The translations under genes and the position numbers were made by a program. Below, piece after piece: positions 1-32,704 of a stretch of 39,316 nt of DNA (the first letter of the stretch is position 1; each line of letters opens with the position of its first letter). A model generated the notes under the pieces. The model was given only the letters and a program-made list of their open reading frames with translations. It was not told where the DNA came from and did no database searches. The stretch spans positions 1-39,316 of the forward strand of contig JAKEEL010000196.1 of the NCBI GenBank assembly GCA_022616595.1, in the 5' to 3' direction. Source of the DNA: Methylococcaceae bacterium. Its GTDB lineage: Bacteria > Pseudomonadota > Gammaproteobacteria > Methylococcales > UBA1147.

Positions 1-686
1 GATTCGTCCGGGATATGGATCGACTCGTTCGGAAACCAGTTTTGAACATCCGATCCTTCGACCTTGTAAAAGGTCCGGCCTTGCTCCTGCCAGGATTCCA
101 TGCAGCCGGCATGGAGTTCCCAAAAATCTTGCGAAACCGTGGTCATTCCGGTATACAAAAGATCGATATCATCCAGAACCTGGTCATTGTAATAGTCTTC
201 GGCCTGAATGCCGAGAATGGTCGCCTTGATTCGGAGGTTGATATCCTTGGAAACCAGGATGACCTGTATGTCGGGCTGCTCCTTGATCAGGCTGAGAACC
301 GTTGCCAGAATCGAATGATCGGGCATGTCTCCGGGCAGCGATTCGGGCAGCAGGGCGGCCATTCTACGGGTTTGGAAAAACAAGCGGCCGCTGTTTCCGC
401 TATTCGGAACGGCGTGATTACTCAGATTGGTGATCGGTATTCCGGCCTCGATTCGCACCGGCTCCGCACTGCTCGAGGCGACCAGTTCGTCAAAGAACCG
501 GCTGGCCTGTCGCGCGTTACGGGCAACCTCGGAAGCTCCTTTCTTGGATCGATCCAACTCCTCGAGTACGATCATCGGGATGAAGATATGATGTTCCTGA
601 AAGCGAAAAATCGATGCGGGATCGTGCATGAGCACGTTGGTATCGAGTACGAACAGTTTTTTCTTTTCGGATGGTTTCGAATTCAT
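1..686 (-). CDS. PhoH2/YlaK-like protein, N-terminal PIN-domain portion (gene continues past the window start)
   Basis: This ORF is absent from the track because it has no stop in the window. My translation from the ATG at 686 (minus strand) gives MNSKPSEKKKLFVLDTNVLMHDPASIFRFQEHHIFIPMIVLEELDRSKKGASEVARNARQA... This is the typical PIN N-terminus of PIN+PhoH ATPase fusions. The 15..824 '+' ORF is its antisense shadow. Confidence 0.8.
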   Translation of the reverse strand, partial: MNSKPSEKKKLFVLDTNVLMHDPASIFRFQEHHIFIPMIVLEELDRSKKGASEVARNARQASRFFDELVASSSAEPVRIEAGIPITNLSNHAVPNSGNSGRLFFQTRRMAALLPESLPGDMPDHSILATVLSLIKEQPDIQVILVSKDINLRIKATILGIQAEDYYNDQVLDDIDLLYTGMTTVSQDFWELHAGCMESWQEQGRTFYKVEGSDVQNWFPNESIHIPDE

Positions 687-837
687 TTCAATCGGTATCC
701 TTCAGGAGGTCCATGCGAGCATCGGGTTCAGCGGGGCGGTTTGATCCAATCGCCGGGAAGCACTTGGCGCCATGCGCCATGTCCGTTTGACGCGACGCCC
801 CGCCCGGGCTCGAAAATTGGCTAGGGGGAGGAAACGC

Positions 838-1314
838 TCAGGCAGCTTGGAGCTGACGGATTTTTTCAAGCACTTCCGTCACGTGTTCGTCAACCTTGAC
901 TCTGCGCCATTCGCACGCGAGCTTGCCATCCCGGTCGATCAGAAAGGTACTGCGCTCGATTCCGAGTACCTGTTTGCCGTACATGTTTTTCATTTTGATC
1001 ACGTCGAAGAGCCGGCACAGGGTTTCGTCCGGATCCGCCAATAGATCGAAGGGAAGGCTCTGTTTTTCCCGGAAGCTCTCGTGGCTTTTCAGGCTGTCCC
1101 GGGATACGCCGAGGATCACCGTATTCAAGGCCTCGAATTCCCTTCGATGATCGCGAAAATCGCAACTTTCGCGGGTGCAGCCCGGGGTGTGGTCCTTCGG
1201 ATAGAAATAAAGAATCAGGTATTTGCCGCGCAAATCCGATAGCTTCACGGTTTTGCCGCCGGTCGAGATGGCTTCAAAGTCCGGGACCGGATGACCCGCA
1301 CTGATCGTTGTCAT
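838..1314 (-). CDS. bcp: Thiol peroxidase / peroxiredoxin Bcp (bacterioferritin comigratory protein)
   Basis: The 158 aa product contains ...YFYPKDHTPGCTRESCDFRD..., the PxxxTxxC peroxidatic Cys motif of the AhpC/TSA fold. Its length is typical of Bcp. Confidence 0.9.
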   Translation of the reverse strand: MTTISAGHPVPDFEAISTGGKTVKLSDLRGKYLILYFYPKDHTPGCTRESCDFRDHRREFEALNTVILGVSRDSLKSHESFREKQSLPFDLLADPDETLCRLFDVIKMKNMYGKQVLGIERSTFLIDRDGKLACEWRRVKVDEHVTEVLEKIRQLQAA

Positions 1315-1529
1315 GAGGACTCCTGATACTGTCGAAATTCGATGGATTAGGCTAATCGAAGATCGCTCTCTGGTGACGGGGATGTCCCCCCTCCAGCAGG
1401 GTATTTTCGATTATTCGGGTGGATAGTATCAGCACTCCGCCCGGCTCAACAAGGTATCCGGGATCAAGTGTAGAAAACAAATGCGTAGCGGGGATGCCGC
1501 CCTCGAGGTCAACTGGTGTGAACCGACTG

Positions 1530-1767
1530 CCCCACCGACCCGAACGGCAAGGTCCTGTCCCGCCCCTGGTTGGCTGAAATCTTCGTCAATACCTCACGCT
1601 TTACCGGCCACTGCTATCGCGCTGCCAACTGGATCGATGTCGGACTTACCACCGCGTGGCCGACAGGATCGTGACCATCAGCTCCACGGCATTGCATCCA
1701 AGCGCATTCTTATCTATCCACTGCACCACAACGCCCGACAACTCCTGATCAACGATTCAAAATGAGA
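1530..1767 (+). pseudogene. Decayed C-terminal remnant of a DUF4338-type (DruA-like) gene
   Basis: Two frames must be joined: GKVLSRPWLAEIFVNTSRFTGHCYRAANWIDVGLTT then (frameshift) GRQDRDHQLHGIASKRILIYPLHHNARQLL*. From memory this matches the C-terminal ...ETFV..RF.G.CYRAANW..VG.T.GRGR.DR.H......K.I..YPL signature of DUF4338 proteins. There is no N-terminal part and no start codon. The track ORF 1481..1765 is a frame mixture. Confidence 0.45.
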
Positions 1768-1916
1768 ATTGCTGGAATGGCCAGAATCTGATAGAAGTTA
1801 AAACTATTTCGTGTTAAAATAAAATGTTATATATTTCAATTTATATTTCAAGGGGCTCTGGTCTCAGACCGAACCGTGGTCCTGAATTCTGAAAGGGTTT
1901 GAAGGAAATCATCACT

Positions 1917-3077
1917 GTGAGTCAAAATTTCATTTTTACTTCGGAATCGGTGTCCGAAGGACATCCCGACAAGGTTGCCGACCAACTCTCCGATGCTGTT
2001 TTGGATGCATTATTGGAACAGGACCCGAAATCGAGGGTGGCCTGTGAAACGATGGTCAAGACCGGCATGGTGATCCTGGCCGGCGAGATTACCACGGAAG
2101 CCTGGGTGGATATGGAGAATCTGGTCAGAACCGTGGTTCGTGAAATCGGCTACGACAATCCGGAAATCGGGTTCGACTGGCAAAGCTGCGCGGTCTTGAA
2201 CGCGATTGGAAAACAATCCCCGGATATCGCGATGGGCGTGGATGAGGCCGAGGGACACGAACAAGGCGCGGGCGACCAGGGATTGATGTTCGGGTATGCC
2301 AGCGATGAAACGGATGTCCTGATGCCCGCGCCGATCACCTACGCTCATCGTCTGGTTCAGCGCCAGGCCGAATTGCGGAAACGCAAGGTCCTCCCGTGGC
2401 TGCGTCCGGACGCCAAAAGCCAGATCACGGTCCGCTACGAAAATTATCGTCCGGTAGCCGTGGACGCGGTTGTCGTGTCCACCCAGCACGCTCCGGATAT
2501 CGGCCGCAACGAACTTCGTGAAGCTGTCATCGACGAAATCATACTCCCGGTGATTCCGGCCGAGTGGATTCACAAGGACACCAAATTCTTCGTGAACCCG
2601 ACCGGACAATTCATTATCGGCGGGCCGGTTGGGGACTGCGGGCTCACCGGTCGAAAAATCATTGTCGATACCTACGGCGGCATGGCTCGTCATGGCGGCG
2701 GGGCGTTCAGCGGCAAGGACCCTTCCAAGGTCGATCGCTCGGCCGCCTACATGTGCCGCTATGTGGCCAAGAATATCGTGGCCGCGGGGCTGGCCGAACG
2801 CTGTGAGATCCAGGTTTCCTACGCGATCGGTGTTGCCGAGCCGACTTCGATCGGCGTGGAGACCTTCGGTACCGGCAAGATCGACGAAAACCGGCTGATC
2901 GGGCTGATTCGCGAGCATTTTGATATGCGCCCGAAAGGTTTGATCCAGATGCTGGATTTGCTGCGCCCGATTTACCACAGAAGCGCCGCCTACGGTCACT
3001 TCGGGCGCAGCGAGGACACATTTTCCTGGGAAAAGACGGACAAAGCCGCGCAATTGAAAGATGCGGCCGGTATCTGA
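1917..3077 (+). CDS. metK: S-adenosylmethionine synthetase
   Basis: Contains [29 protein letters not shown] and [16 protein letters not shown] motifs. I prefer the GTG at 1917 (product [11 protein letters not shown]..., AAGGA about 10 nt upstream) over the TTG at 1899 given in the track. Confidence 0.95.
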
Positions 3078-3122
3078 GCCCGAAACCAAGGATCCCCCAA
3101 CCCTTCGAGTAGAGGAAAAAGC

Positions 3123-4436
3123 ATGAGCAGTCAACCGGTCAAAAACCTCACTCCCGACTACAGGATCGCGGATATTTCTCTGTCCGACTGGGGCCGGAAG
3201 GAGATCAATATCGCCGAAACCGAGATGCCCGGGCTTATGGCGCTTCGCGAGGAATACCGGGACAGACAGCCCTTGAAGGGCGCGCGGATCGCAGGTTGTC
3301 TGCATATGACCATCCAGACCGCGGTATTGATCGAAACGCTGGTCCAGCTCGGGGCCGAGGTGCGCTGGTCGTCCTGCAATATATTCTCGACCCAGGACCA
3401 CGCGGCCGCGGCGATCGCGGCCGCGGGAATACCGGTTTTCGCGTGGAAGGGTGAAACCGAGCAGGAAGCCTGGTGGTGTATCGACCAGACCATTTTCGGC
3501 CCGAATGGCTGGCGTCCGAATATGTTGCTCGACGACGGCGGGGACCTGACTCTGGTCATGCACGAGAAATATCCGGATTTGATGACGGGTGTCCGGGGGC
3601 TGTCGGAAGAAACGACGACCGGCGTGCTGCGCCTGACCGAAATGGTGAAGAAAGGTACCTTGAAAGCCCCGGCCTTCAACGTAAACGACTCGGTAACCAA
3701 GTCAAAATTCGACAATCTGTATGGCTGTCGTGAATCCCTGCTGGACGGGATCAAACGCGCGACCGACGTCATGATCGCGGGCAAAATCGCCGTGGTCTGC
3801 GGTTACGGCGATGTCGGCAAGGGCTGCACCCAATCCTTGCGCGGCCAGGGCGCGACGGTTTGGGTCACCGAAATCGATCCGATCTGCGCTTTGCAGGCCG
3901 CGCTCGAAGGTTACCGCGTGGTCGATTTGGACAAGGCGGCCTATGATGCGGATATTTTCGTGACCGCGACCGGGAACTATCATGTGATCACCCACGAACA
4001 TATGAAGGCCATGAAGGATCAGGCGATCGTGTGCAACATCGGGCATTTCGATTCCGAAATCGATATCGCTGCGCTGCGCCAGTACCCGTGGGAAAACATC
4101 AAGCCGCAGGTTGACCACGTAATTTTTCCGGATGGGAAACGGATCATCGTGCTCGCGGAAGGCCGTTTGGTGAACCTTGGCTGCGCGACCGGGCACCCGA
4201 GCTTCGTGATGTCGAATTCATTCACGAATCAAATATTGGCCCAGATCGAATTGTGGACCAACTCCGGGAAATACCGGAATCAGGTCTACGTGCTTCCGAA
4301 GAAGCTCGACGAAAAAGTGGCTTCGCTGCATCTGAAAAAACTCGGGGTCCACCTGACCCGCCTCAACGAAAAACAGGCGCAATATATCGGAGTGAGCCCG
4401 GACGGCCCCTACAAACCGGAGCATTATCGGTACTGA
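3123..4436 (+). CDS. ahcY: Adenosylhomocysteinase (SAH hydrolase)
   Basis: The 437 aa product has [34 protein letters not shown], the NAD-binding stretch [11 protein letters not shown] and the C-terminal YKPEHYRY. These are classic AhcY features. Confidence 0.95.
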
Positions 4437-4647
4437 GCAGGTTGCGGCGAATTTCGGTTGTTCGCGCCGAAAGCCGCGCTGCGTCTGCTGATTCACAGAC
4501 ATGATGGCATATCGATTTCGAACGGTGCCGTTTCGGCGTCGTATTTGCGTGCATCGGAGTTGCGAGCCAATCGCGTCCGAATTCCAAACAAACCGAGCAC
4601 ACTTCCTTGTCGCTCCCGCGCTTTCGACGATTTCCGAAACTTGAGCC

Positions 4648-5499
4648 ATGATAACCAAGACCGCTTACAAGAAGGATTACAGTTTCGAATTTTTTCCGCC
4701 GCGCTCGCCGGAAGCCGAGCAGCAGCTGATCAGGACTTCGCAGGATCTCGCGGGACTGCATCCTCTGTTTTTTTCGGTGACTTTCGGGGCGGGCGGAACC
4801 ACGCGGGCGAAGACGCGCGAAACGGTAATCGAACTCAAGAATCGCACCGGAATCGAAGCTGCTCCCCATATCTCCTGTATCGGCTCGACCCGGAGCAGTG
4901 TGCAAAGAATCATCCAGGATTACCGGGACCAGGGAATCCGCAGAATCGTCGCGCTGCGCGGTGATATGCCATCCGGCATGATGGAGATCGGCCAATTCCG
5001 CTATGCCAATGAACTGGTCGAATTCATCCGCGCGGAAACCGGCGATTATTTCCATATTCACGTCGCGGCCTACCCTGAAATGCATCCTCAGGCTCCGAAC
5101 ATCGAAGCCGACCTGAAAAACTTCAAACGCAAGGTGGAGGCCGGCGCCGACGATGCGATTACGCAGTATTTCTATAATTCCGAGGCCTATTTCCGTTTCG
5201 TCGATGCCTGCCTGAAGGCGGGTCTCGATATACCGATCATTCCGGGGGTCATGCCGATCGGTAATTTTTTCCAGCTTTCGCGATTTTCCGAGGCCTGCGG
5301 AGCGGACATCCCGCGCTGGATGCGCAAACGCTTCGAATACTACGCGGACAACCGCGATTCGGTTCAGGCGCTCGGCATCGATATCGTGACCACGCTGTGC
5401 CAGAATCTTTTGGACAACGGCGCTCCGGGAATCCACTTTTACACCATGAATCGGTCCGATCTGGTTCGTAAAATCTGGGACCGTCTCGACATAGAATAA
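4648..5499 (+). CDS. metF: 5,10-methylenetetrahydrofolate reductase
   Basis: The 283 aa product has YSFEFFPPRSPEAEQQL..., FFSVTFGAGG and ...IHFYTMNR..., the MetF/MTHFR signature. Confidence 0.92.
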   Translation: MITKTAYKKDYSFEFFPPRSPEAEQQLIRTSQDLAGLHPLFFSVTFGAGGTTRAKTRETVIELKNRTGIEAAPHISCIGSTRSSVQRIIQDYRDQGIRRIVALRGDMPSGMMEIGQFRYANELVEFIRAETGDYFHIHVAAYPEMHPQAPNIEADLKNFKRKVEAGADDAITQYFYNSEAYFRFVDACLKAGLDIPIIPGVMPIGNFFQLSRFSEACGADIPRWMRKRFEYYADNRDSVQALGIDIVTTLCQNLLDNGAPGIHFYTMNRSDLVRKIWDRLDIE

Positions 5500-6237
5500 G
5501 TGCGCGTTCCGAGAATCTATCTCCCGATCACGCTCAGCCCGGCCGTTCCGATCGAATTGGATGAACACTGCGCGCATCACGTGCGGAGCGTACTGCGACT
5601 CAGAAAGGGAGACTCCGTGCAACTCTTCGACGGTCGGGGCGCGGAATATTCGGCTGTCCTCACGCTGGTCAGCAAAAGTTCCGTCAGTGTCTTGGTCGGG
5701 GAAGCGAGCCCTTGCAATACCGAATCCCCGCTAGCGATTCATTTCGGGCTGGCCATCTCGCGCGGCGAACGCATGGACTTCGCGATCCAGAAATCCGTGG
5801 AACTCGGGGTCGCCAGCATCACTCCGGTGTTGACCGAGCGCTGCGTGGTCAGGCTGGACCCACATCGCTCCAAGCAGAAACATTCCCACTGGCAGCGAAT
5901 CGCGACGAACGCGAGCGAACAATCGGGGCGCGCCAGAGTTCCGGAAATCCGCGAACCCGCCGCGCTGACTTCCTGGCTCACCAACTGCCAAGACCTGAAA
6001 ATATATCTCGACCCTTCGTCGAGTCGAACGCTGCATTCCTTGGAATCGGCACCGCGGGGCGTTACCCTGCTTTCCGGACCGGAGGGAGGTTTCACCGAGC
6101 GCGAGCGGGAGCTTGCGGTCAATGCCGGCTTTATCGGTGTGAGGCTCGGACCGCGAATCCTGCGGACGGAAACCGCTGCGCTCGCGGGGATCACGTTGAT
6201 CCAGGCGCTGTGGGGCGACTTGGGTCTTCGTACATAG
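5500..6237 (+). CDS. rsmE: 16S rRNA (uracil1498-N3)-methyltransferase RsmE
   Basis: The product starts MRVPRIYLP...HHVRSVLRLRKGDSVQLFDGRG and ends with the SPOUT knot ...LLSGPEGGFTERE...GPRILRTETAA. The GTG start directly follows the metF stop. Confidence 0.9.
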   Translation: MRVPRIYLPITLSPAVPIELDEHCAHHVRSVLRLRKGDSVQLFDGRGAEYSAVLTLVSKSSVSVLVGEASPCNTESPLAIHFGLAISRGERMDFAIQKSVELGVASITPVLTERCVVRLDPHRSKQKHSHWQRIATNASEQSGRARVPEIREPAALTSWLTNCQDLKIYLDPSSSRTLHSLESAPRGVTLLSGPEGGFTERERELAVNAGFIGVRLGPRILRTETAALAGITLIQALWGDLGLRT

Positions 6238-9218: not shown

Positions 9219-9375
9219 ATCAATTCCAGGGATGCCGTTCCGGGTGAATGTTTGCTCAAGAGTACCTCATGGAAAACCGGTTCACCCGCGCGGCTTAGTT
9301 TATCCGGACACGGGCCGCCTCATAAAGCGTTTAGTTCCGGTAAAGGCCGCCTTGACCGAATGGCGGGCATTGCCG

Positions 9376-9398
9376 CAGAATCGAAAAATTCGATTCTG
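9376..9398. promoter_or_regulatory. Perfect 10-bp inverted repeat (CAGAATCGAA-AAA-TTCGATTCTG), candidate operator in the divergent rimK / vWA-cassette intergenic region
   Basis: I read the palindrome directly from the sequence. It lies 155 nt upstream of the vWA gene ATG (9553) and 158 nt from the rimK-fusion start (9218). Confidence 0.35.
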
Positions 9399-9552: not shown

Positions 9553-10224
9553 ATGGCTACTAAAATCGCCTATTTTGTTGATATCGTGCTGGTCATCGAC
9601 TGTACCGGCAGCATGCGGCCGGTCATCAACCGGGTCAAGTCCCGGGCGCTCGAGTTCCACGCAAAAATTCTGGCGCGCATGGAAGGGAAGAAGAAATCGA
9701 TCGATCGCTTGCGGATGCGCGTGGTTTCCTACCGGGATTTTTGGGCGGATAAAGATGCGATCCGGGAAATGCCCGAATTTGTCGATATGGAAACCGAAGC
9801 CCACAAGTTCGAGGCCTTCGTCAATGAATTGTGGGCGGACGGCGGCGGAGACGAGCCGGAAAGCGGGCTCGAAGCCCTGGCGCTCGCGATCCAGTCACCG
9901 TGGTACAAGAATTCCCGCTCCAAGAAACGCAGCATCATCGTGGTCTGGACCGACGCGACCGCCCATCCGCTGGAAAAGGCGCAGGAGTCGCCGCCGCAGC
10001 ACTATCCGGAACACATGCCGGCCAGTCTCGATGAACTGACCGATGCCTGGGATGAATTGCCGGTCGCGAGCCGCCGTCTGCTGTTGTATGCGCCGGACCA
10101 GCCTCCATGGAACGAGATCGGCCATAACTGGGACCAGACGATTTACTTCCCGTCGATTGCCGGCGAAGGGCTCGCGGAACACGATATGGACACGATTCTC
10201 GAAGCGATCGCCAACAGCATCTAG
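9553..10224 (+). CDS. Small cytosolic von Willebrand factor A (vWA) domain protein (TerY-like role)
   Basis: Contains the MIDAS motif VLVIDCTGSM (DxTxS), then ADGGGDEPESGLEAL and VVWTDATAH. The ATG at 9553 is preceded by GAGGGGG. The upstream extension of the track ORF (from 9442) has no domain content. There is no signal peptide or TM segment. Confidence 0.85.
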   Translation: MATKIAYFVDIVLVIDCTGSMRPVINRVKSRALEFHAKILARMEGKKKSIDRLRMRVVSYRDFWADKDAIREMPEFVDMETEAHKFEAFVNELWADGGGDEPESGLEALALAIQSPWYKNSRSKKRSIIVVWTDATAHPLEKAQESPPQHYPEHMPASLDELTDAWDELPVASRRLLLYAPDQPPWNEIGHNWDQTIYFPSIAGEGLAEHDMDTILEAIANSI

Positions 10225-10289
10225 CCAGGGTCCCCTTGAATCGCTTGCGCCCCGGCGTAATCGTATCGAAGTGCCGGCTTCCCGCTGCG

Positions 10290-11510
10290 ATGGCCGGCTC
10301 TGAAGATCCCATGCCGCTCACGGAACCAGGCGCATACTTCCGCTGTGCGGCCGCGCAGGATGCCGATGGAAAACAGGATCAAGGCCGCTGCGAGGACGCG
10401 CTTCCGATTCTGACCGAGCTATCCGGAGGGCGCGTTTTGCTGGGAGTCGCGGACGGCTTGGGAGGCTATGCGCGCGGTTTTGACGGTCGAAGCGGCGGAC
10501 AGATCGCATCGGCAACCGCGATGAAGGCTGCGGCGGACGTCTTCCGCCGCGCGGCTCCCGCAGAGCATCCGGATGCTGAAGCGCTGACCAATTCCATATT
10601 CAAACGGCTCAGGCACCTCGCCGAAACCCGCTTGGAGCCGAGCGGGATCCGCGGGACGCTGGGTCGTCATAAACTCGCAACGACGTTGGCGCTCGTGGTC
10701 CTGGACGCCAGACCTCTTCGATCGACCACAAGAATCCAGTGTTATTGGATCGGCGATTCCCGGATTTATTTTTTGGGCCGGGAGGGCCTGCACCAATTGA
10801 CCCGGGACGATAATCTGGCCGGGGCCGATGCATTCGATTCGATTTTCGATCCGCCGCCGATGTCCCGGTTTCTTGCCGCGAGCATGGAACGCGAATGGCG
10901 GATCCATGTACGCGAACTGAACCTGGATTGCCCCGGTGTCGTGATCGCGTGCACCGACGGCTGTTATTCCGAGTGGCGCAGTCCCTGGGGCTTCGAAGCG
11001 GCGCTGCAGCAGGCGCTGGAGCAGAGTGGATCCTGGAAGGAGTGGATCGAGCGGTTTCGCTTCGCGTTGCAACCGCTGCTTTCGGATGATGCCTCTCTGG
11101 TCGCCTTTCCGCTGAAGCTTTTGGACTTCAAGGAGTTCCAAAAACTGCGGGCGGAGACCAGAGGCGCGCTCCAAGAGTGTCTGAAAGCGGAACGCGAACG
11201 GGGATTGCAGGCCAAGGAAATCTGGACTTCGATTTATAAGACGACGTACGAAAGCATCCCCGTCGGAGGCAAAGACCTGCTTTCGGACAGCGTCCTGGCG
11301 AAGCCGGAGAATCCGGCGGCTAGGACGATCGTGTTCTCGGGTCCTGTGCAATCTCGATCACGGATGCTTTCCCGGCTTGATTCACGCTGGTCGATCCCGG
11401 GACTGGCCTGGCTCGCCGGTTTTGCCTGCGGGCTTCCGTTCGGGGAAAAGTTCATGGTTTGGCTGGAATTTTTTTGGCGCTGGTTCAAATCCCTATGGCA
11501 ATCCACCTGA
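10290..11510 (+). CDS. PP2C-family Ser/Thr protein phosphatase with a hydrophobic Trp-rich C-terminal tail
   Basis: Contains PP2C motifs LLGVADGLGGY, WIGDSRIYFL, LTRDDN, VIACTDGCY and LLSDDASLVAF. The C-terminus reads ...IPGLAWLAGFACGLPFGEKFMVWLEFFWRWFKSLWQST. The start is uncertain: TTG 10236, ATG 10290 and ATG 10311 are all in frame. Confidence 0.85.
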   Translation: MAGSEDPMPLTEPGAYFRCAAAQDADGKQDQGRCEDALPILTELSGGRVLLGVADGLGGYARGFDGRSGGQIASATAMKAAADVFRRAAPAEHPDAEALTNSIFKRLRHLAETRLEPSGIRGTLGRHKLATTLALVVLDARPLRSTTRIQCYWIGDSRIYFLGREGLHQLTRDDNLAGADAFDSIFDPPPMSRFLAASMEREWRIHVRELNLDCPGVVIACTDGCYSEWRSPWGFEAALQQALEQSGSWKEWIERFRFALQPLLSDDASLVAFPLKLLDFKEFQKLRAETRGALQECLKAERERGLQAKEIWTSIYKTTYESIPVGGKDLLSDSVLAKPENPAARTIVFSGPVQSRSRMLSRLDSRWSIPGLAWLAGFACGLPFGEKFMVWLEFFWRWFKSLWQST

Positions 11511-12616
11511 CCGCGGGCAGCCGGCTCAAGGGTTATACGCTCACGACGGACATGACTTCGTCCGACGCCGGGATGTCGATGTGGGCCTTTGCCGAGAAGG
11601 ACGGCTTCGATTATTTTGTGAAGTGCTATCTGAGCCCGGTTTTTCCGGATCCGGAGGGACCCGGATCGGAAATCTCCAAGGCCCGTAAACGTGCGCGCTG
11701 CCAGACATTCGAGACACGCATGCTGCGCGTCGAATCGACCCTGAAAGAATGCGGCAATGCAAATTTCCTGGTACGTGGTATCGATTTTTTCCGCCAGGAC
11801 GGGACTTATTTCAAGATCACGAAAAAGGTCTACGCGAATCAGAGCAGCGTGTCCGCATTGCCCGCGCGCAAGCAGATGCTGGTTTTATTGTCCGCCGCCT
11901 ATTCGCTCAAAGTCTTGCATGAAACCTCGAGTTTCATTCATGCGGATATCAAACCGGAAAATTTCTTGCTGCAGCGCGCCGGGGCTGGAATGATCGCGCA
12001 CCTGATCGATTTCGACGCGGGATTTTATATGGGACATCCGCCCCTTCCCGATGAACTGGTCGGAGACCAGCGCTATTGGGCGCCGGAAATGGTCGCCTGG
12101 TTGACTCACGATCACCGGGCGCGGCGAAATCGATGTCCCGCGCTACTGCAATCGCTGGACGTGTTTTCGCTCGGGCTTACCTTCTGCGAATATCTGAGCG
12201 GCGCCTTGCCGATTTCTCCTTCCGGTCATGCCTATCCCGGCGAAGCGGTTCTGGACAATGTCAGACCGACCTTGCCGCAACCCCTTCAAACCAGCCTGGC
12301 GCCGCTGATGACGCTGATTCAAGCCATGCTGCACAAAAATCCGCTGAGCCGTCCGAGCGCGGCCTGCGTGCATCAGCAACTTCGTATCTTCAACCGCGTG
12401 CATTTCGTATCGGATACGACCTACCACAAGATCACGGCTTCGTGGAAACGGTTTCTTGTTTCCGGCGGCGAATCCCTGCGCGGCCTGGTCAAGGCGCGCG
12501 CCGCCCATCCGGCGGTCAAAACCACAAGCGAATTGCGCGTTCGCGGATTAAAAGCCGTTCAACGAGCCGGAGCCCCGTCATTCCCCGGTCGCCTGCGGTT
12601 CTGGAGCAAGGCATGA
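11495..12616 (+). CDS. Atypical Hanks-type Ser/Thr protein kinase
   Basis: Contains a beta3 Lys (YFVKCY), a catalytic loop IHADIKPENFLL (HRD->HAD), a Mg loop LIDFDAGF (DFG->DFD), YWAPEM (APE) and SLDVFSLGLTFCEYLSG. I see no GxGxxG loop. The ATG at 11495 overlaps the phosphatase stop (11508-11510) by 16 nt. TTG 11459 is an alternative start. Confidence 0.85.
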   Translation: MAIHLTAGSRLKGYTLTTDMTSSDAGMSMWAFAEKDGFDYFVKCYLSPVFPDPEGPGSEISKARKRARCQTFETRMLRVESTLKECGNANFLVRGIDFFRQDGTYFKITKKVYANQSSVSALPARKQMLVLLSAAYSLKVLHETSSFIHADIKPENFLLQRAGAGMIAHLIDFDAGFYMGHPPLPDELVGDQRYWAPEMVAWLTHDHRARRNRCPALLQSLDVFSLGLTFCEYLSGALPISPSGHAYPGEAVLDNVRPTLPQPLQTSLAPLMTLIQAMLHKNPLSRPSAACVHQQLRIFNRVHFVSDTTYHKITASWKRFLVSGGESLRGLVKARAAHPAVKTTSELRVRGLKAVQRAGAPSFPGRLRFWSKA

Positions 12617-12996
12617 AGTTTTACGTTTGCGCCTGCGCCGCTTGTACCTGGAAAGGCAATAAACCGCATCGCGACGGACAATGTCCGGTCTGCGGGAATG
12701 CGCTGGACATCCAAATCCGGGAACGCCGCCTTTCCTCGGATCTAACCAGCAAGGTGATCCTGTCGGGCCTGTCGAGCGATCAAAAAATCCAGCCGCCCTT
12801 GCCGGATCTTTCGATTTTGAAGGATTACAAAATATCCGGGCAGGAATTGCAAGGCTTGCTCACGGCCGGCGAATCGATCCGCGCAAGGCTTGTCGAATCG
12901 ATTTCAAAAATGCATTCTTCGAGTCAAGTCCTGAAGCCCGGCGCCGCATTCGCGAGTGTGCTGAAGCGCCGCTCGCTCTCTTCGATCGAGCCATGA
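12613..12996 (+). CDS. Small Zn-ribbon protein (CxxC...CxxC), fourth gene of the cassette
   Basis: The product starts MKFYVCACAACTWKGNKPHRDGQCPVCGNALDIQ... Its ATG at 12613 overlaps the kinase TGA (an ATGA junction). It lies in frame inside track ORF 12076..12996. The last ~70 nt overlap an antisense gene remnant, so the true C-terminus is uncertain. Confidence 0.6.
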   Translation: MKFYVCACAACTWKGNKPHRDGQCPVCGNALDIQIRERRLSSDLTSKVILSGLSSDQKIQPPLPDLSILKDYKISGQELQGLLTAGESIRARLVESISKMHSSSQVLKPGAAFASVLKRRSLSSIEP

Positions 12997-13235
12997 GCGC
13001 AGCTCAATTCGCGGGTACGCTGTTCCACCAAGCGCTCGATGCGGGCCGTGCGGCCGCTTACCGAAAGCAGAAAGGCTCCGAGCCAGGCTTGCAGGCTCGC
13101 GCCGGCGGCCGGCGAGGAATCTCCGTAGCACGGTGCCGCGGCATGAGAGCGATCAGCAAGAAAGCACGCGAACAGGAAAATCGAATGACTTATTTCATCG
13201 ATCTGAAATGTAGTATGGCATGGTTGAGTTGTCAA
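12924..13235 (-). pseudogene. Truncated N-terminal fragment of a membrane sensor (TM / coiled-coil linker / first residues of a PAS domain)
   Basis: The track ORF ends ...LQAWLGAFLLSVSGRTARIERLVEQRTRELSCAHGSIEESERRFSTLANAAPGFRT*. The motif RTxEL...SEERF..L...AP is the usual linker into the first PAS domain of sensor kinases and GGDEF proteins. The reading frame stops exactly where the PAS domain should begin. Confidence 0.4.
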
Positions 13236-32588: not shown

Positions 32589-32704
32589 GGGAGGCAGGCC
32601 GTGCCAGCCTCACCCCGGCACACGAATCCGCTGCTACCGCTGCTCCCTTCCGGGCCTGACGGGGTTCACAGCGTATCGTTGCGGAGGGACCGACACGGCT
32701 TACC
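32589..32704 (-). ncRNA. ffs: Signal recognition particle RNA (4.5S RNA)
   Basis: The minus strand reads GGUAAGCCGUGUCGGUCCCUCCGCAACG...CCCCGUCAGGCCCGGAAGGGAGCAGCGGUAGCAGCGG...GUGUGCCGGGGUGAGGCUGGCACGGCCUGCC. It aligns along its length with E. coli 4.5S RNA, including the domain IV core GUCAGGxCCGGAAGGxAGCAGC. The 5' GGUAAGCCGUGUCGG pairs with the 3' CUGGCACGGCCUGCC. It sits in the canonical position upstream of dnaX. The ends are accurate to about +/-5 nt. Confidence 0.88.

What the first reader, a model, noticed from the sequence alone, without database searches (positions are those of the whole stretch)
9553..12996. Translationally coupled vWA / PP2C phosphatase / atypical Ser-Thr kinase / Zn-ribbon cassette (TerY-P-like triad plus a fourth gene)
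Seen in sequence: four same-strand genes are packed tightly. vWA to PP2C has at most a 65 nt gap, depending on the PP2C start. The kinase ATG at 11495 overlaps the PP2C stop by 16 nt. The Zn-ribbon ATG at 12613 overlaps the kinase TGA. The vWA protein is short (223 aa), has no signal peptide or TM segment, and has an intact MIDAS (DCTGS...TD). The PP2C has all metal-binding Asp motifs and ends in an unusual Trp/Phe-rich hydrophobic tail (FMVWLEFFWRWFKSLW). The kinase keeps the catalytic residues (VK Lys, HAD-x-KPEN, DFD, APE) but lacks a recognisable Gly-rich loop. Established knowledge: a vWA(TerY)+PP2C+STK 'TerY-P triad' was defined computationally by Anantharaman, Iyer and Aravind (2012). 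As far as I recall, a TerY-P system was listed as anti-phage by Gao et al. (2020). Its mechanism, ligand and substrates remain unknown. Inference: this is a divergent, four-component member of that class. It could be a self-contained phospho-switch for sensing, stress response or defence, embedded between housekeeping genes. What may be new is the extra Zn-ribbon gene, the membrane-seeking phosphatase tail and the degenerate kinase N-lobe.
Basis: partly seen in the sequence, partly recalled or inferred. Interest (0 to 1): 0.75.

Follow-up and report, generated by a model that had tools for sequence, protein, structure and literature searches.

The report
vWA–phosphatase–kinase–zinc-ribbon switch cassette
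Four tightly packed genes in a methane-oxidiser genome encode a self-contained protein-phosphorylation switch of a class already known from comparative genomics (the TerY-P triad), which is widespread in bacteria and conserved as a unit but has not been studied experimentally in this form.

Summary
Window 9553-12996 carries four same-strand, overlapping or near-abutting genes: a 223-aa vWA protein with a complete MIDAS, a PP2C phosphatase, a Hanks-type Ser/Thr kinase and a 127-aa Zn-ribbon protein. Catalytic residues are intact and invariant across each family.

The linkage is not chance. A one-genome-per-species scan found at least 512 relatives of the vWA protein. Of 79 fetched loci from many phyla, 49 carry vWA, PP2C and kinase together. 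In most of these the next gene starts with a Zn ribbon followed by a highly variable tail.

The "extra" fourth gene is therefore a regular component. It is fused to the kinase in close relatives, and the literature already describes TerY-P kinases with a C-terminal Zn ribbon.

The proteins are only remotely related to the canonical ter-operon triad of plasmid R478. The kinase lacks the OB fold of the phage-tested version. Neighbourhoods show no clear defence-island signal and there are essentially no viral copies.

The kinase N-lobe is complete; only its Gly loop is degenerate. The PP2C tail is an interfacial amphipathic helix, not a transmembrane segment.

Verdict: a real, mobile, uncharacterised phospho-switch and a variant of a known kind. 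Its biological role is unproven. Interest is moderate.

The parts
9352..9381 (+). Weak sigma-70-like promoter match in the 334-bp divergent intergenic region upstream of the vWA gene
   Evidence: 9 of 12 matches. This is a consensus match only, not evidence of function.
9553..10224 (+). vWA protein, 223 aa, cytosolic. MIDAS is D16-x-T18-x-S20 (nt 9598-9612) plus T133-D134 (nt 9949-9954). It has a family-specific C-terminal half (residues about 142-223) and is the most conserved component.
   Evidence: VWA_4, 1e-12; 63% mean column identity across phyla; 76-84% identity to Methylococcales relatives, against 42-66% for the other three proteins.
10236..11510 (+). PP2C phosphatase ORF. The start is TTG 10236, ATG 10290 or ATG 10311. 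The catalytic domain covers about residues 30-275 (numbering from 10290), followed by a helical region.
   Evidence: PP2C_2, 2.9e-14; invariant ED, DGxGG, GDS, DG and DD motifs; gene call from TTG 10236.
11391..11507 (+). C-terminal hydrophobic/amphipathic Trp/Phe tail of the PP2C (residues 368-406). It is predicted to be interfacial membrane-binding, not a TM helix. Its last 13 nt also encode the kinase N-terminus.
   Evidence: KD19 maximum 1.19; Wimley-White -8.4 kcal/mol. (conserved in L005, L008, L009 and L039 only).
11495..12616 (+). Hanks-type Ser/Thr kinase, 373 aa. Motif positions: K43 (nt 11621-11623), HADIKPEN (nt 11939-11962), DFD (nt 12008-12016), APE. It has a degenerate Gly loop (SDAGMS), a conserved PxYPxxxxPGS insert after K43, and a disordered basic C-tail with an LRG motif.
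   Evidence: (pLDDT about 90 for residues 1-310). (Foldseek: ULK1, CaMKII and PknB, with TM-score normalised to the target about 0.7).
12613..12996 (+). Zn-ribbon protein, 127 aa. It has a C-x-C-x2-C...C-x2-C head (nt 12628-12693), an invariant LSGLSxDxK motif and one C-terminal helix. The last ~20 aa differ from all homologs.
   Evidence: family alignment; AF2 pLDDT 56; only 3 representative clusters in 1.84 billion. (fused to the kinase in L009 and P0014).

Best explanation
The four genes form one horizontally mobile cassette that encodes a closed Ser/Thr phosphorylation switch of the TerY-P architectural class.

**Shown**
- The Hanks-type kinase and the PP2C phosphatase both have intact, family-invariant catalytic residues, so they are predicted active.
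- The small cytosolic vWA protein has a complete MIDAS and is by far the most conserved part.
- The Zn-ribbon protein is the detachable C-terminal module of the kinase.
- The four genes travel together across phyla.

**Inferred**
- The kinase and phosphatase write and erase a phosphate mark on a component of the module, either the Zn-ribbon protein or the vWA protein.
- The vWA protein acts as a metal-dependent hub or clamp whose binding depends on that mark.
- The Zn-ribbon subunit supplies targeting, sensing or output. In other phyla it carries a TM helix or variable domains such as FGE-sulfatase, PDZ, S1, GNAT or coiled coil.
- In this Methylococcales clade the Zn-ribbon protein is minimal. 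Membrane contact is probably supplied instead by the amphipathic Trp/Phe tail of the phosphatase.

**Biological role**
The most likely role is conflict or stress sensing (defence-like). This is the weakest step.
For: **Domains and catalytic residues:**

**Kinase fold:** complete.

**Coupling:** overlapping stop/start codons, conserved in relatives. Gaps of -3 to +16 nt between the kinase and gene 4 are typical across phyla.

**Co-conservation:** at least 512 relatives in a one-genome-per-species collection. 49 of 79 fetched loci have the full triad. The Zn-ribbon-headed gene comes next in most of them. 11 of 31 hit RanBP2-type Zn_ribbon PF00641, and their C-termini are highly variable.

**Natural fusions (Rosetta-stone evidence)**
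- Kinase-Zn ribbon in L009 and P0014.
- Kinase-vWA in L049.

**vWA as hub:** 76-84% identity to relatives where the other three proteins are 42-66% identical.

**Mobility**
- None of the window's flanking genes is present at the cassette in other Methylococcales.
- Copies occur on Calothrix and Herpetosiphon plasmids next to transposase or resolvase genes.

**Literature**
- TerY-P is described as vWA + PP2C + STK-Zn ribbon (PMC11090510).
- Kinase-Zn ribbon + PP2C + stand-alone vWA is described in actinobacterial conflict systems (PMC7159879).
Against: - No substrate, ligand or output is identified.
- AF2 gave no confident placement of the Zn ribbon on the kinase (pLDDT below 55 for that part).
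- Neighbourhoods of 53 triad loci are mostly unrelated housekeeping genes. There is only a small excess of STAND NTPases (5 of 132) and scattered PADLOC hits.
- The window's own flanks are housekeeping genes.
- There are no copies in IMG/VR and only one unannotated contig in the phage collection.
- Homology between this clade's Zn-ribbon head and the RanBP2-like heads of other phyla is weak (hhalign E = 0.0024, probability 12%). The equivalence rests on position and Cys pattern.
- 12 of 79 loci have the vWA gene without kinase or phosphatase, so the vWA protein can also work in other partnerships.
Confidence: 0.6

Rival explanations
1. It is specifically an anti-phage (abortive-infection type) defence system equivalent to the TerY-P system tested by Gao et al. 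2020.
For: - It has the same three-domain architecture as a module reported to protect against T7-like phages.
- Its distribution is patchy and HGT-like, and it occurs on plasmids.
- The fourth gene is hypervariable, as is typical of conflict systems.
- It is occasionally adjacent to nSTAND1-WD40, E1/E2-like genes, WYL, Lamassu or Sep-like hits.
Against: - The tested system has a kinase-OB fusion. Here there is no OB, and the only match to the PADLOC STK_OB model is E = 0.033 over about 54 residues.
- There are no PADLOC hits for vWA, PP2C or the Zn-ribbon protein.
- Most neighbours are housekeeping genes.
- The system is only remotely related to the canonical triad.
Confidence: 0.25
2. It is an ordinary receptor-type Ser/Thr kinase signalling module (kinase plus cognate PP2C) that regulates envelope or developmental physiology. 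Gene 4 is the split sensor/anchor half of the kinase, and vWA is an adaptor.
For: - In other phyla gene 4 often reads as a cytosolic Zn ribbon, one TM helix and an extracytoplasmic-type domain such as FGE-sulfatase, PDZ or PPC. This mirrors bacterial receptor kinases.
- The Calothrix variant has a kinase with coiled coil and TM.
- The genomic context is housekeeping.
- The T6SS kinase PpkA also carries a vWA domain (my own knowledge, not tested here).
Against: - The distribution is very patchy, and the genomic context is non-conserved even within Methylococcales. This argues against a core physiological regulator.
- The window's own gene 4 has no TM or sensor domain.
- No conserved target gene lies next to the cassette.
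Confidence: 0.13
3. It is a tellurite/metal stress sensor like the TerY genes of ter operons.
For: The name and the original context of TerY-P. R478 has vWA(TerY_C)-PP2C-kinase next to terZABCDE. The MIDAS is a metal site.
Against: - There are no Ter genes in the flanks.
- There is no TerY_C domain.
- tblastn of the vWA protein finds none of the ter plasmids even at E <= 1.
- hhalign to the R478 TerY gives probability 6.6%.
Confidence: 0.02

Closest known systems
TerY-P triad as described with CoCoNuT systems (Bell et al., eLife 2024, PMC11090510): TerY-like vWA + PP2C + STK fused to a C-terminal Zn ribbon
   Same: It has the same four modules: vWA with MIDAS, PP2C, STK and Zn ribbon. The Zn ribbon lies immediately C-terminal to the kinase and is literally fused to it in relatives L009 and P0014. 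One cyanobacterial family member has the FtsK/WXG100 genes downstream that this literature mentions.
   Different: - Here the Zn ribbon is a separate, translationally coupled gene.
- There is no McrBC/CoCoNuT, CARF or HEPN neighbour.
- The MIDAS is DxTxS rather than DxSxS.
Canonical ter-operon TerY-P triad (Anantharaman, Iyer & Aravind 2012), e.g. plasmid R478
   Same: The gene order is vWA > PP2C > kinase, and a Cys-rich metal-binding module is part of the set.
   Different: - In R478 the metal-binding module is TerY_C fused to the vWA protein, the PP2C has a 280-aa N-terminal extension, and the kinase is InaA/Kdo-like.
- The R478 vWA proteins hit Pfam VWA/VWA_2, not VWA_4.
- hhalign probability is 6.6% (vWA), 78% (PP2C) and 94% (kinase core only).
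- The window has no ter genes.
TerY-P-like anti-phage system of Gao et al. 2020 (kinase-OB fusion)
   Same: It is a three-enzyme architecture and a stand-alone cassette.
   Different: There is no OB fold on or after the kinase, and no PADLOC hits for vWA or PP2C. No functional data exist for this lineage.
Actinobacterial kinase(-Zn ribbon / TM) + PP2C + stand-alone vWA genes linked to GAP1-N2 GTPase-centric conflict systems (Kaur et al., eLife 2020, PMC7159879)
   Same: The component set is the same. Actinobacterial members of this vWA family occur in the order PP2C > kinase > vWA, then a RanBP2-type Zn-ribbon protein.
   Different: No DO-GTPase or GAP1 genes lie near the window cassette. The window clade is gammaproteobacterial with a minimal Zn-ribbon protein.
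PpkA/PppA/Fha1 threonine-phosphorylation pathway of type VI secretion (own knowledge, not tested)
   Same: It is a Hanks kinase paired with a PP2C and a vWA domain. Kinase-vWA fusions also exist in this family (L049).
   Different: No FHA protein and no T6SS genes are present in the cassette or its flanks. Here the vWA protein is cytosolic and stand-alone.

Membership tests
TerY-P triad (architectural class; Anantharaman 2012, Bell 2024) | Stand-alone vWA protein with intact MIDAS encoded next to the two enzymes | tested here: met
   (VWA_4, 1e-12). (D16, T18, S20, T133 and D134 invariant).
TerY-P triad (architectural class; Anantharaman 2012, Bell 2024) | PP2C-family phosphatase with catalytic metal ligands | tested here: met
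   (PP2C_2, 2.9e-14). (ED, DGxGG, GDS, DG and DD motifs invariant).
TerY-P triad (architectural class; Anantharaman 2012, Bell 2024) | Catalytically competent Ser/Thr kinase | tested here: met
   (Pkinase, 2.2e-18). (K43, HxDxKxxN, DFD, APE and R286 invariant). (complete kinase fold).
TerY-P triad (architectural class; Anantharaman 2012, Bell 2024) | Conserved operonic linkage of the three genes across distant genomes | tested here: met
   49 of 79 loci have the full triad, in Cyanobacteria, Bacteroidota, Actinomycetota, Chloroflexota, Verrucomicrobiota, Firmicutes, Spirochaetes and Proteobacteria.
TerY-P triad (architectural class; Anantharaman 2012, Bell 2024) | Zn ribbon at the C-terminus of the kinase (Bell 2024 description) | tested here: inconclusive
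   In the window it is present as a separate gene whose ATG overlaps the kinase stop. It is truly fused in L009 and P0014. The module is therefore present, but the fusion is not.
Canonical ter-operon TerY-P (R478 type) | Sequence-level relatedness to TerY, including the TerY_C metal-binding domain, and linkage to ter genes | tested here: not met
   No TerY_C hit. No ter plasmid found by tblastn at E <= 1. hhalign probability 6.6% for vWA. No Ter genes in the flanks.
Gao 2020 anti-phage TerY-P | Kinase fused to a C-terminal OB fold | tested here: not met
   The kinase C-tail is disordered and is followed by a Zn ribbon. The PADLOC STK_OB model matches only at E = 0.033 over about 54 residues.
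Gao 2020 anti-phage TerY-P | Recognition by defence-system HMMs (PADLOC) | tested here: inconclusive
   No hits for vWA, PP2C or the Zn-ribbon protein. The canonical R478 triad also gives none, so this library cannot decide. DefenseFinder is not available.
Gao 2020 anti-phage TerY-P | Protection against phage | not testable with these tools
   This requires an experiment.
T6SS threonine-phosphorylation pathway (PpkA/PppA/Fha) | FHA-domain substrate and T6SS genes in the neighbourhood | tested here: not met
   There is no FHA domain in the four proteins. The flanks are P450, RimK-like, DedA, TolC and GGDEF-EAL.
GAP1-N2 GTPase-centric conflict systems (Kaur 2020) | DO-GTPase and GAP1 genes adjacent to the kinase/PP2C/vWA genes | tested here: not met
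   The window flanks and the neighbour survey show no such genes among the frequent families.

The most novel reading that the evidence does not exclude
The window belongs to a large, experimentally untouched four-component family with at least about 500 loci in a one-genome-per-species collection. The family is distinct at sequence level from canonical TerY-P.

In this reading, an ultra-conserved cytosolic MIDAS protein is a phospho-dependent hub. It pairs either with a kinase/PP2C couple plus a Zn-ribbon-headed protein carrying a hypervariable sensor/effector tail, or alternatively with STAND NTPases.

That would make it an immune-receptor-like signalling platform whose logic (a MIDAS reading a phospho-mark) has no characterised bacterial precedent.
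Probability: 0.25. Interest if true: 0.65.

Novelty: new variant of a known kind. Interest (0 to 1): 0.42.

Why it matters
TerY-P-type modules are listed among anti-phage systems and are embedded in larger defence operons, yet their mechanism, substrate and trigger are unknown.

This lineage offers a compact and very widespread version: four small soluble proteins with all catalytic residues intact. It also has natural kinase-Zn-ribbon and kinase-vWA fusions that indicate which proteins are likely to interact.

If the vWA MIDAS reads a phosphorylation mark, that would be a new signalling principle in bacteria. If the module turns out to be a plain regulatory kinase/phosphatase pair, it would caution against annotating every vWA-PP2C-kinase cluster as a defence system.

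Tried and rejected
1. **PADLOC as a membership test.** There were no hits for three of the four proteins. The canonical R478 triad also fails, so the negative result cannot be interpreted.

2. **AF2 of the Zn-ribbon protein alone.** pLDDT was 56, too low for a fold search.

3. **AF2 of a kinase + Zn-ribbon concatenation mimicking the natural fusion.**
   - The kinase is well modelled but the Zn-ribbon part has pLDDT below 55, so there is no docking information.
   - MAFFT misaligned the stand-alone Zn-ribbon rows.

4. **Search for an empty insertion site.**
   - Contigs with the identical DedA all carry the cassette.
   - RimK homologs from metagenomes share no synteny.
   - The boundaries of the insertion therefore remain undefined.

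5. **Flanking repeats.** Only short, chance-level matches were found.

6. **Viral origin.** No relatives in IMG/VR, and one unannotated faecal contig in the phage collection.

7. **The RRxS site in the Zn-ribbon protein as a kinase substrate site.** It is not conserved in homologs or in the fused form, so the idea was dropped.

8. **Anantharaman et al. 2012.** The paper could not be read because it is not held. Statements about it rest on citing papers and on my own memory.

9. **Profile search for the Zn-ribbon family.** Only 3 representative clusters were found, so nothing is learnt from remote relatives.

Full report
**What is in the sequence**

The window comes from a Methylococcaceae metagenome-assembled genome (source name of P0001). 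Four genes lie on the + strand between 9553 and 12996.

- **vWA:** a 223-aa protein, 9553-10224, with a GAGGGGG Shine-Dalgarno-like run just upstream.
- **PP2C:** an ORF at 10236-11510.
- **Kinase:** its ATG at 11495 overlaps the PP2C stop by 16 nt.
- **Zn-ribbon protein:** a 127-aa protein whose ATG at 12613 overlaps the kinase TGA.

Pfam places the first three in VWA_4 (1e-12), PP2C_2 (2.9e-14) and Pkinase (2.2e-18). The fourth has no family.

The PP2C start is uncertain. Gene calls on contigs of the same organism use TTG 10236. ATG 10290 or 10311 are alternatives.

The flanks are housekeeping genes:
- Upstream: MetK, AdoHcyase, MTHFR, RsmE, a P450 and a RimK-like ligase.
- Downstream: DedA, TolC, an M15 peptidase and a PAS-GGDEF-EAL protein.

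**Are the proteins functional?**

Family alignments show that all catalytic or ligand residues are invariant.

- **vWA:** MIDAS D16-x-T18-x-S20, plus T133 and D134.
- **Kinase:** K43, E73, H149-x-D151-x-K153-x-x-N156, D172-F-D174, P197-E198, D222 and R286.
- **PP2C:** E35-D36, D55-G56-x-G-G, G155-D156-S157, D223-G224 and D266-D267.

The kinase's Gly-rich loop is xGGGx in most relatives and SDAGMS in this clade. Only Gly26 is invariant.

An AF2 model of the kinase is confident for residues 1-310 (pLDDT about 90) and has a complete N-lobe. It superposes on ULK1, CaMKII and PknB, with TM-scores normalised to the target of about 0.7. The N-lobe is therefore atypical in one loop and carries a conserved PxYPxxxxPGS insert, but it is not degenerate.

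The PP2C tail (residues 368-406) is not hydrophobic enough for a TM helix (Kyte-Doolittle 19-residue maximum 1.19). It is strongly interfacial and amphipathic (Wimley-White -8.4 kcal/mol). It is conserved only in the Methylococcales clade.

**Is the linkage more than chance?**

Yes. The vWA protein has 779 database relatives. A scan of one genome per species found at least 512 encoded relatives.

I fetched 79 loci and classified them with iterated profiles:
- 43 have the order vWA > PP2C > kinase.
- 6, all actinobacterial, have PP2C > kinase > vWA.
- About 10 are partial or truncated.
- 7 are too short to judge.
- 12 have the vWA gene in another context. One of these sits next to an nSTAND1-WD40 NTPase.

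The loci come from Cyanobacteria, Bacteroidota, Actinomycetota, Chloroflexota, Verrucomicrobiota, Firmicutes, Spirochaetes and Proteobacteria. Two lie on plasmids beside transposase or resolvase genes.

Within Methylococcales the cassette is intact, but none of the window's flanking genes accompanies it. It therefore moves as a unit. The vWA protein is 76-84% identical between these relatives. The PP2C, kinase and Zn-ribbon proteins are 42-66% identical.

**The fourth gene**

Close sequence relatives of the window's Zn-ribbon protein are rare: 13 proteins and 3 representative clusters among 1.84 billion.

The position is conserved, however. In most triad loci the gene that follows the kinase, at a gap of -3 to +16 nt, begins with a CxxC...CxxC Zn ribbon. 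All four Cys are invariant in a 31-sequence alignment. Eleven of the 31 hit the RanBP2-type Zn ribbon, PF00641.

Behind the ribbon the proteins diverge completely. Tails include single TM helices, coiled coils, and FGE-sulfatase, PDZ, S1, GNAT and PPC domains.

In two close relatives, L009 and the 22-member cluster P0014, the kinase and the Zn-ribbon protein form one polypeptide. An actinobacterial locus fuses a canonical Hanks kinase to this vWA family.

The Zn-ribbon gene is thus the detachable C-terminal module of the kinase, not an addition peculiar to this window. Direct profile comparison of this clade's ribbon with the RanBP2-like heads is weak (E = 0.0024, probability 12%). The equivalence therefore rests on position and Cys pattern.

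**Comparison with what is known**

Bell et al. describe TerY-P as a TerY-like vWA, a PP2C and an STK fused to a C-terminal Zn ribbon. They state that the phage-tested modules of Gao et al. carry an OB fold in that position instead (PMC11090510; PMC7699616). Kaur et al. describe kinase-Zn ribbon, PP2C and stand-alone vWA genes in actinobacterial conflict systems (PMC7159879).

I retrieved the canonical ter-operon triad from plasmid R478. Its order is vWA+TerY_C, then PP2C, then an InaA-like kinase. Sequence relations to the window families are remote:
- hhalign probability is 6.6% for vWA, 78% for PP2C, and 94% for the kinase catalytic core only.
- tblastn of the window vWA protein finds no ter plasmid, even at E <= 1.
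- PADLOC has no hit for the window's vWA, PP2C or Zn-ribbon proteins. It has none for the R478 triad either, so that test decides nothing.

The cassette therefore shares the architecture of the TerY-P class but belongs to a separate sequence lineage. That lineage has a VWA_4-type vWA, a DxTxS MIDAS, no TerY_C and no OB fold.

**Role**

Context gives little help.
- Two genes on either side of 53 triad loci are mostly unrelated housekeeping genes. There is a small excess of STAND NTPases (5 of 132), some DUF4407 proteins, and a few scattered defence-model hits.
- The family is essentially absent from viral collections.
- I found no experimental paper on this family in the held library.

The favoured model is a closed phospho-switch with four parts:
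1. The kinase and PP2C oppose each other on a substrate inside the module.
2. The highly constrained vWA protein acts as a metal-dependent hub.
3. The Zn-ribbon subunit supplies targeting, sensing or output.
4. In this clade the PP2C tail provides membrane contact.

Activity of the enzymes, the co-inheritance and the fusions are shown. The substrate, the reading of a phospho-mark by the MIDAS, and a defence role are all inferred.

**Verdict**

This is a genuine, mobile, uncharacterised variant of a known kind. I score it as moderately interesting, because the whole class still lacks a mechanism and this compact lineage would be a convenient entry point.

Noticed in passing
window 12924-13235 (- strand): A 103-aa ORF with a hydrophobic N-terminal part and the stretch ...ERLVEQRTRELSCAHGSIEESERRFSTLANAAPGF. 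This reads like the TM-linker-PAS start of a sensor protein cut off after about 100 residues.

It overlaps the last 73 nt of the Zn-ribbon gene, whose final ~20 residues are the only part that departs from all homologs. This may be a recombination junction at about 12937 that replaced the native 3' end of the cassette.

The ORF has no Pfam hit and no paralog in the window.
   Followed up: partly
L009 9808-11385; protein P0014: Natural kinase-Zn-ribbon fusion proteins (525-aa ORF and 483 aa) in Methylococcaceae relatives. The P0014 cluster has 22 member sequences, so this is not an assembly artefact.
   Followed up: yes
L049 885-2687: Actinomycetota MAG: a single 600-aa ORF with a canonical Hanks kinase (GFGGFATV Gly loop) at the N-terminus and a member of this vWA family (48% identical to the window's) at the C-terminus. 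Similar long vWA-containing ORFs occur in L059, L068 and L069.
   Followed up: partly
L011 8001-12158; L003 4011-7775: In L011 this vWA family is immediately followed by an nSTAND1-WD40 NTPase with no kinase or PP2C. In L003 it sits next to one, together with ThiF/E2-like genes. This suggests the vWA protein can serve other conflict-type partners.
   Followed up: partly
L039 8001-8673: The vWA gene of the closest genome-collection relative (Methylococcales JTS-RE114) is split between two reading frames at about codon 123. This is either a frameshift pseudogene or a sequencing error.
   Followed up: no
L027, L054, L056: Microcoleus and Phormidium loci carry two tandem copies of the vWA gene upstream of the PP2C and kinase. 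This is reminiscent of the duplicated VWA genes described for some CoCoNuT operons.
   Followed up: no
window 32599-32695 (- strand): Bacterial small SRP RNA, 78.2 bits, full length.
   Followed up: no
window 15-6237: A cluster of activated-methyl-cycle genes (MetK, AdoHcy hydrolase, MTHFR) followed by the 16S rRNA methyltransferase RsmE. Next comes a cytochrome P450, which is unusual in a gammaproteobacterial methanotroph, and a RimK-like ligase with an N-terminal retropepsin-like Zn_protease domain.
   Followed up: no
window 11495-12616 (kinase) and 12613-12996 (Zn ribbon), C-termini: In this clade both the kinase and most Zn-ribbon homologs end in a similar basic R-F-R / R-F-W motif (...RLRFWSKA...RFRSDE). 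The kinase family also has a nearly invariant L-R-G motif in its otherwise disordered tail. These may be docking motifs. The window's Zn-ribbon protein has lost its copy.
   Followed up: no
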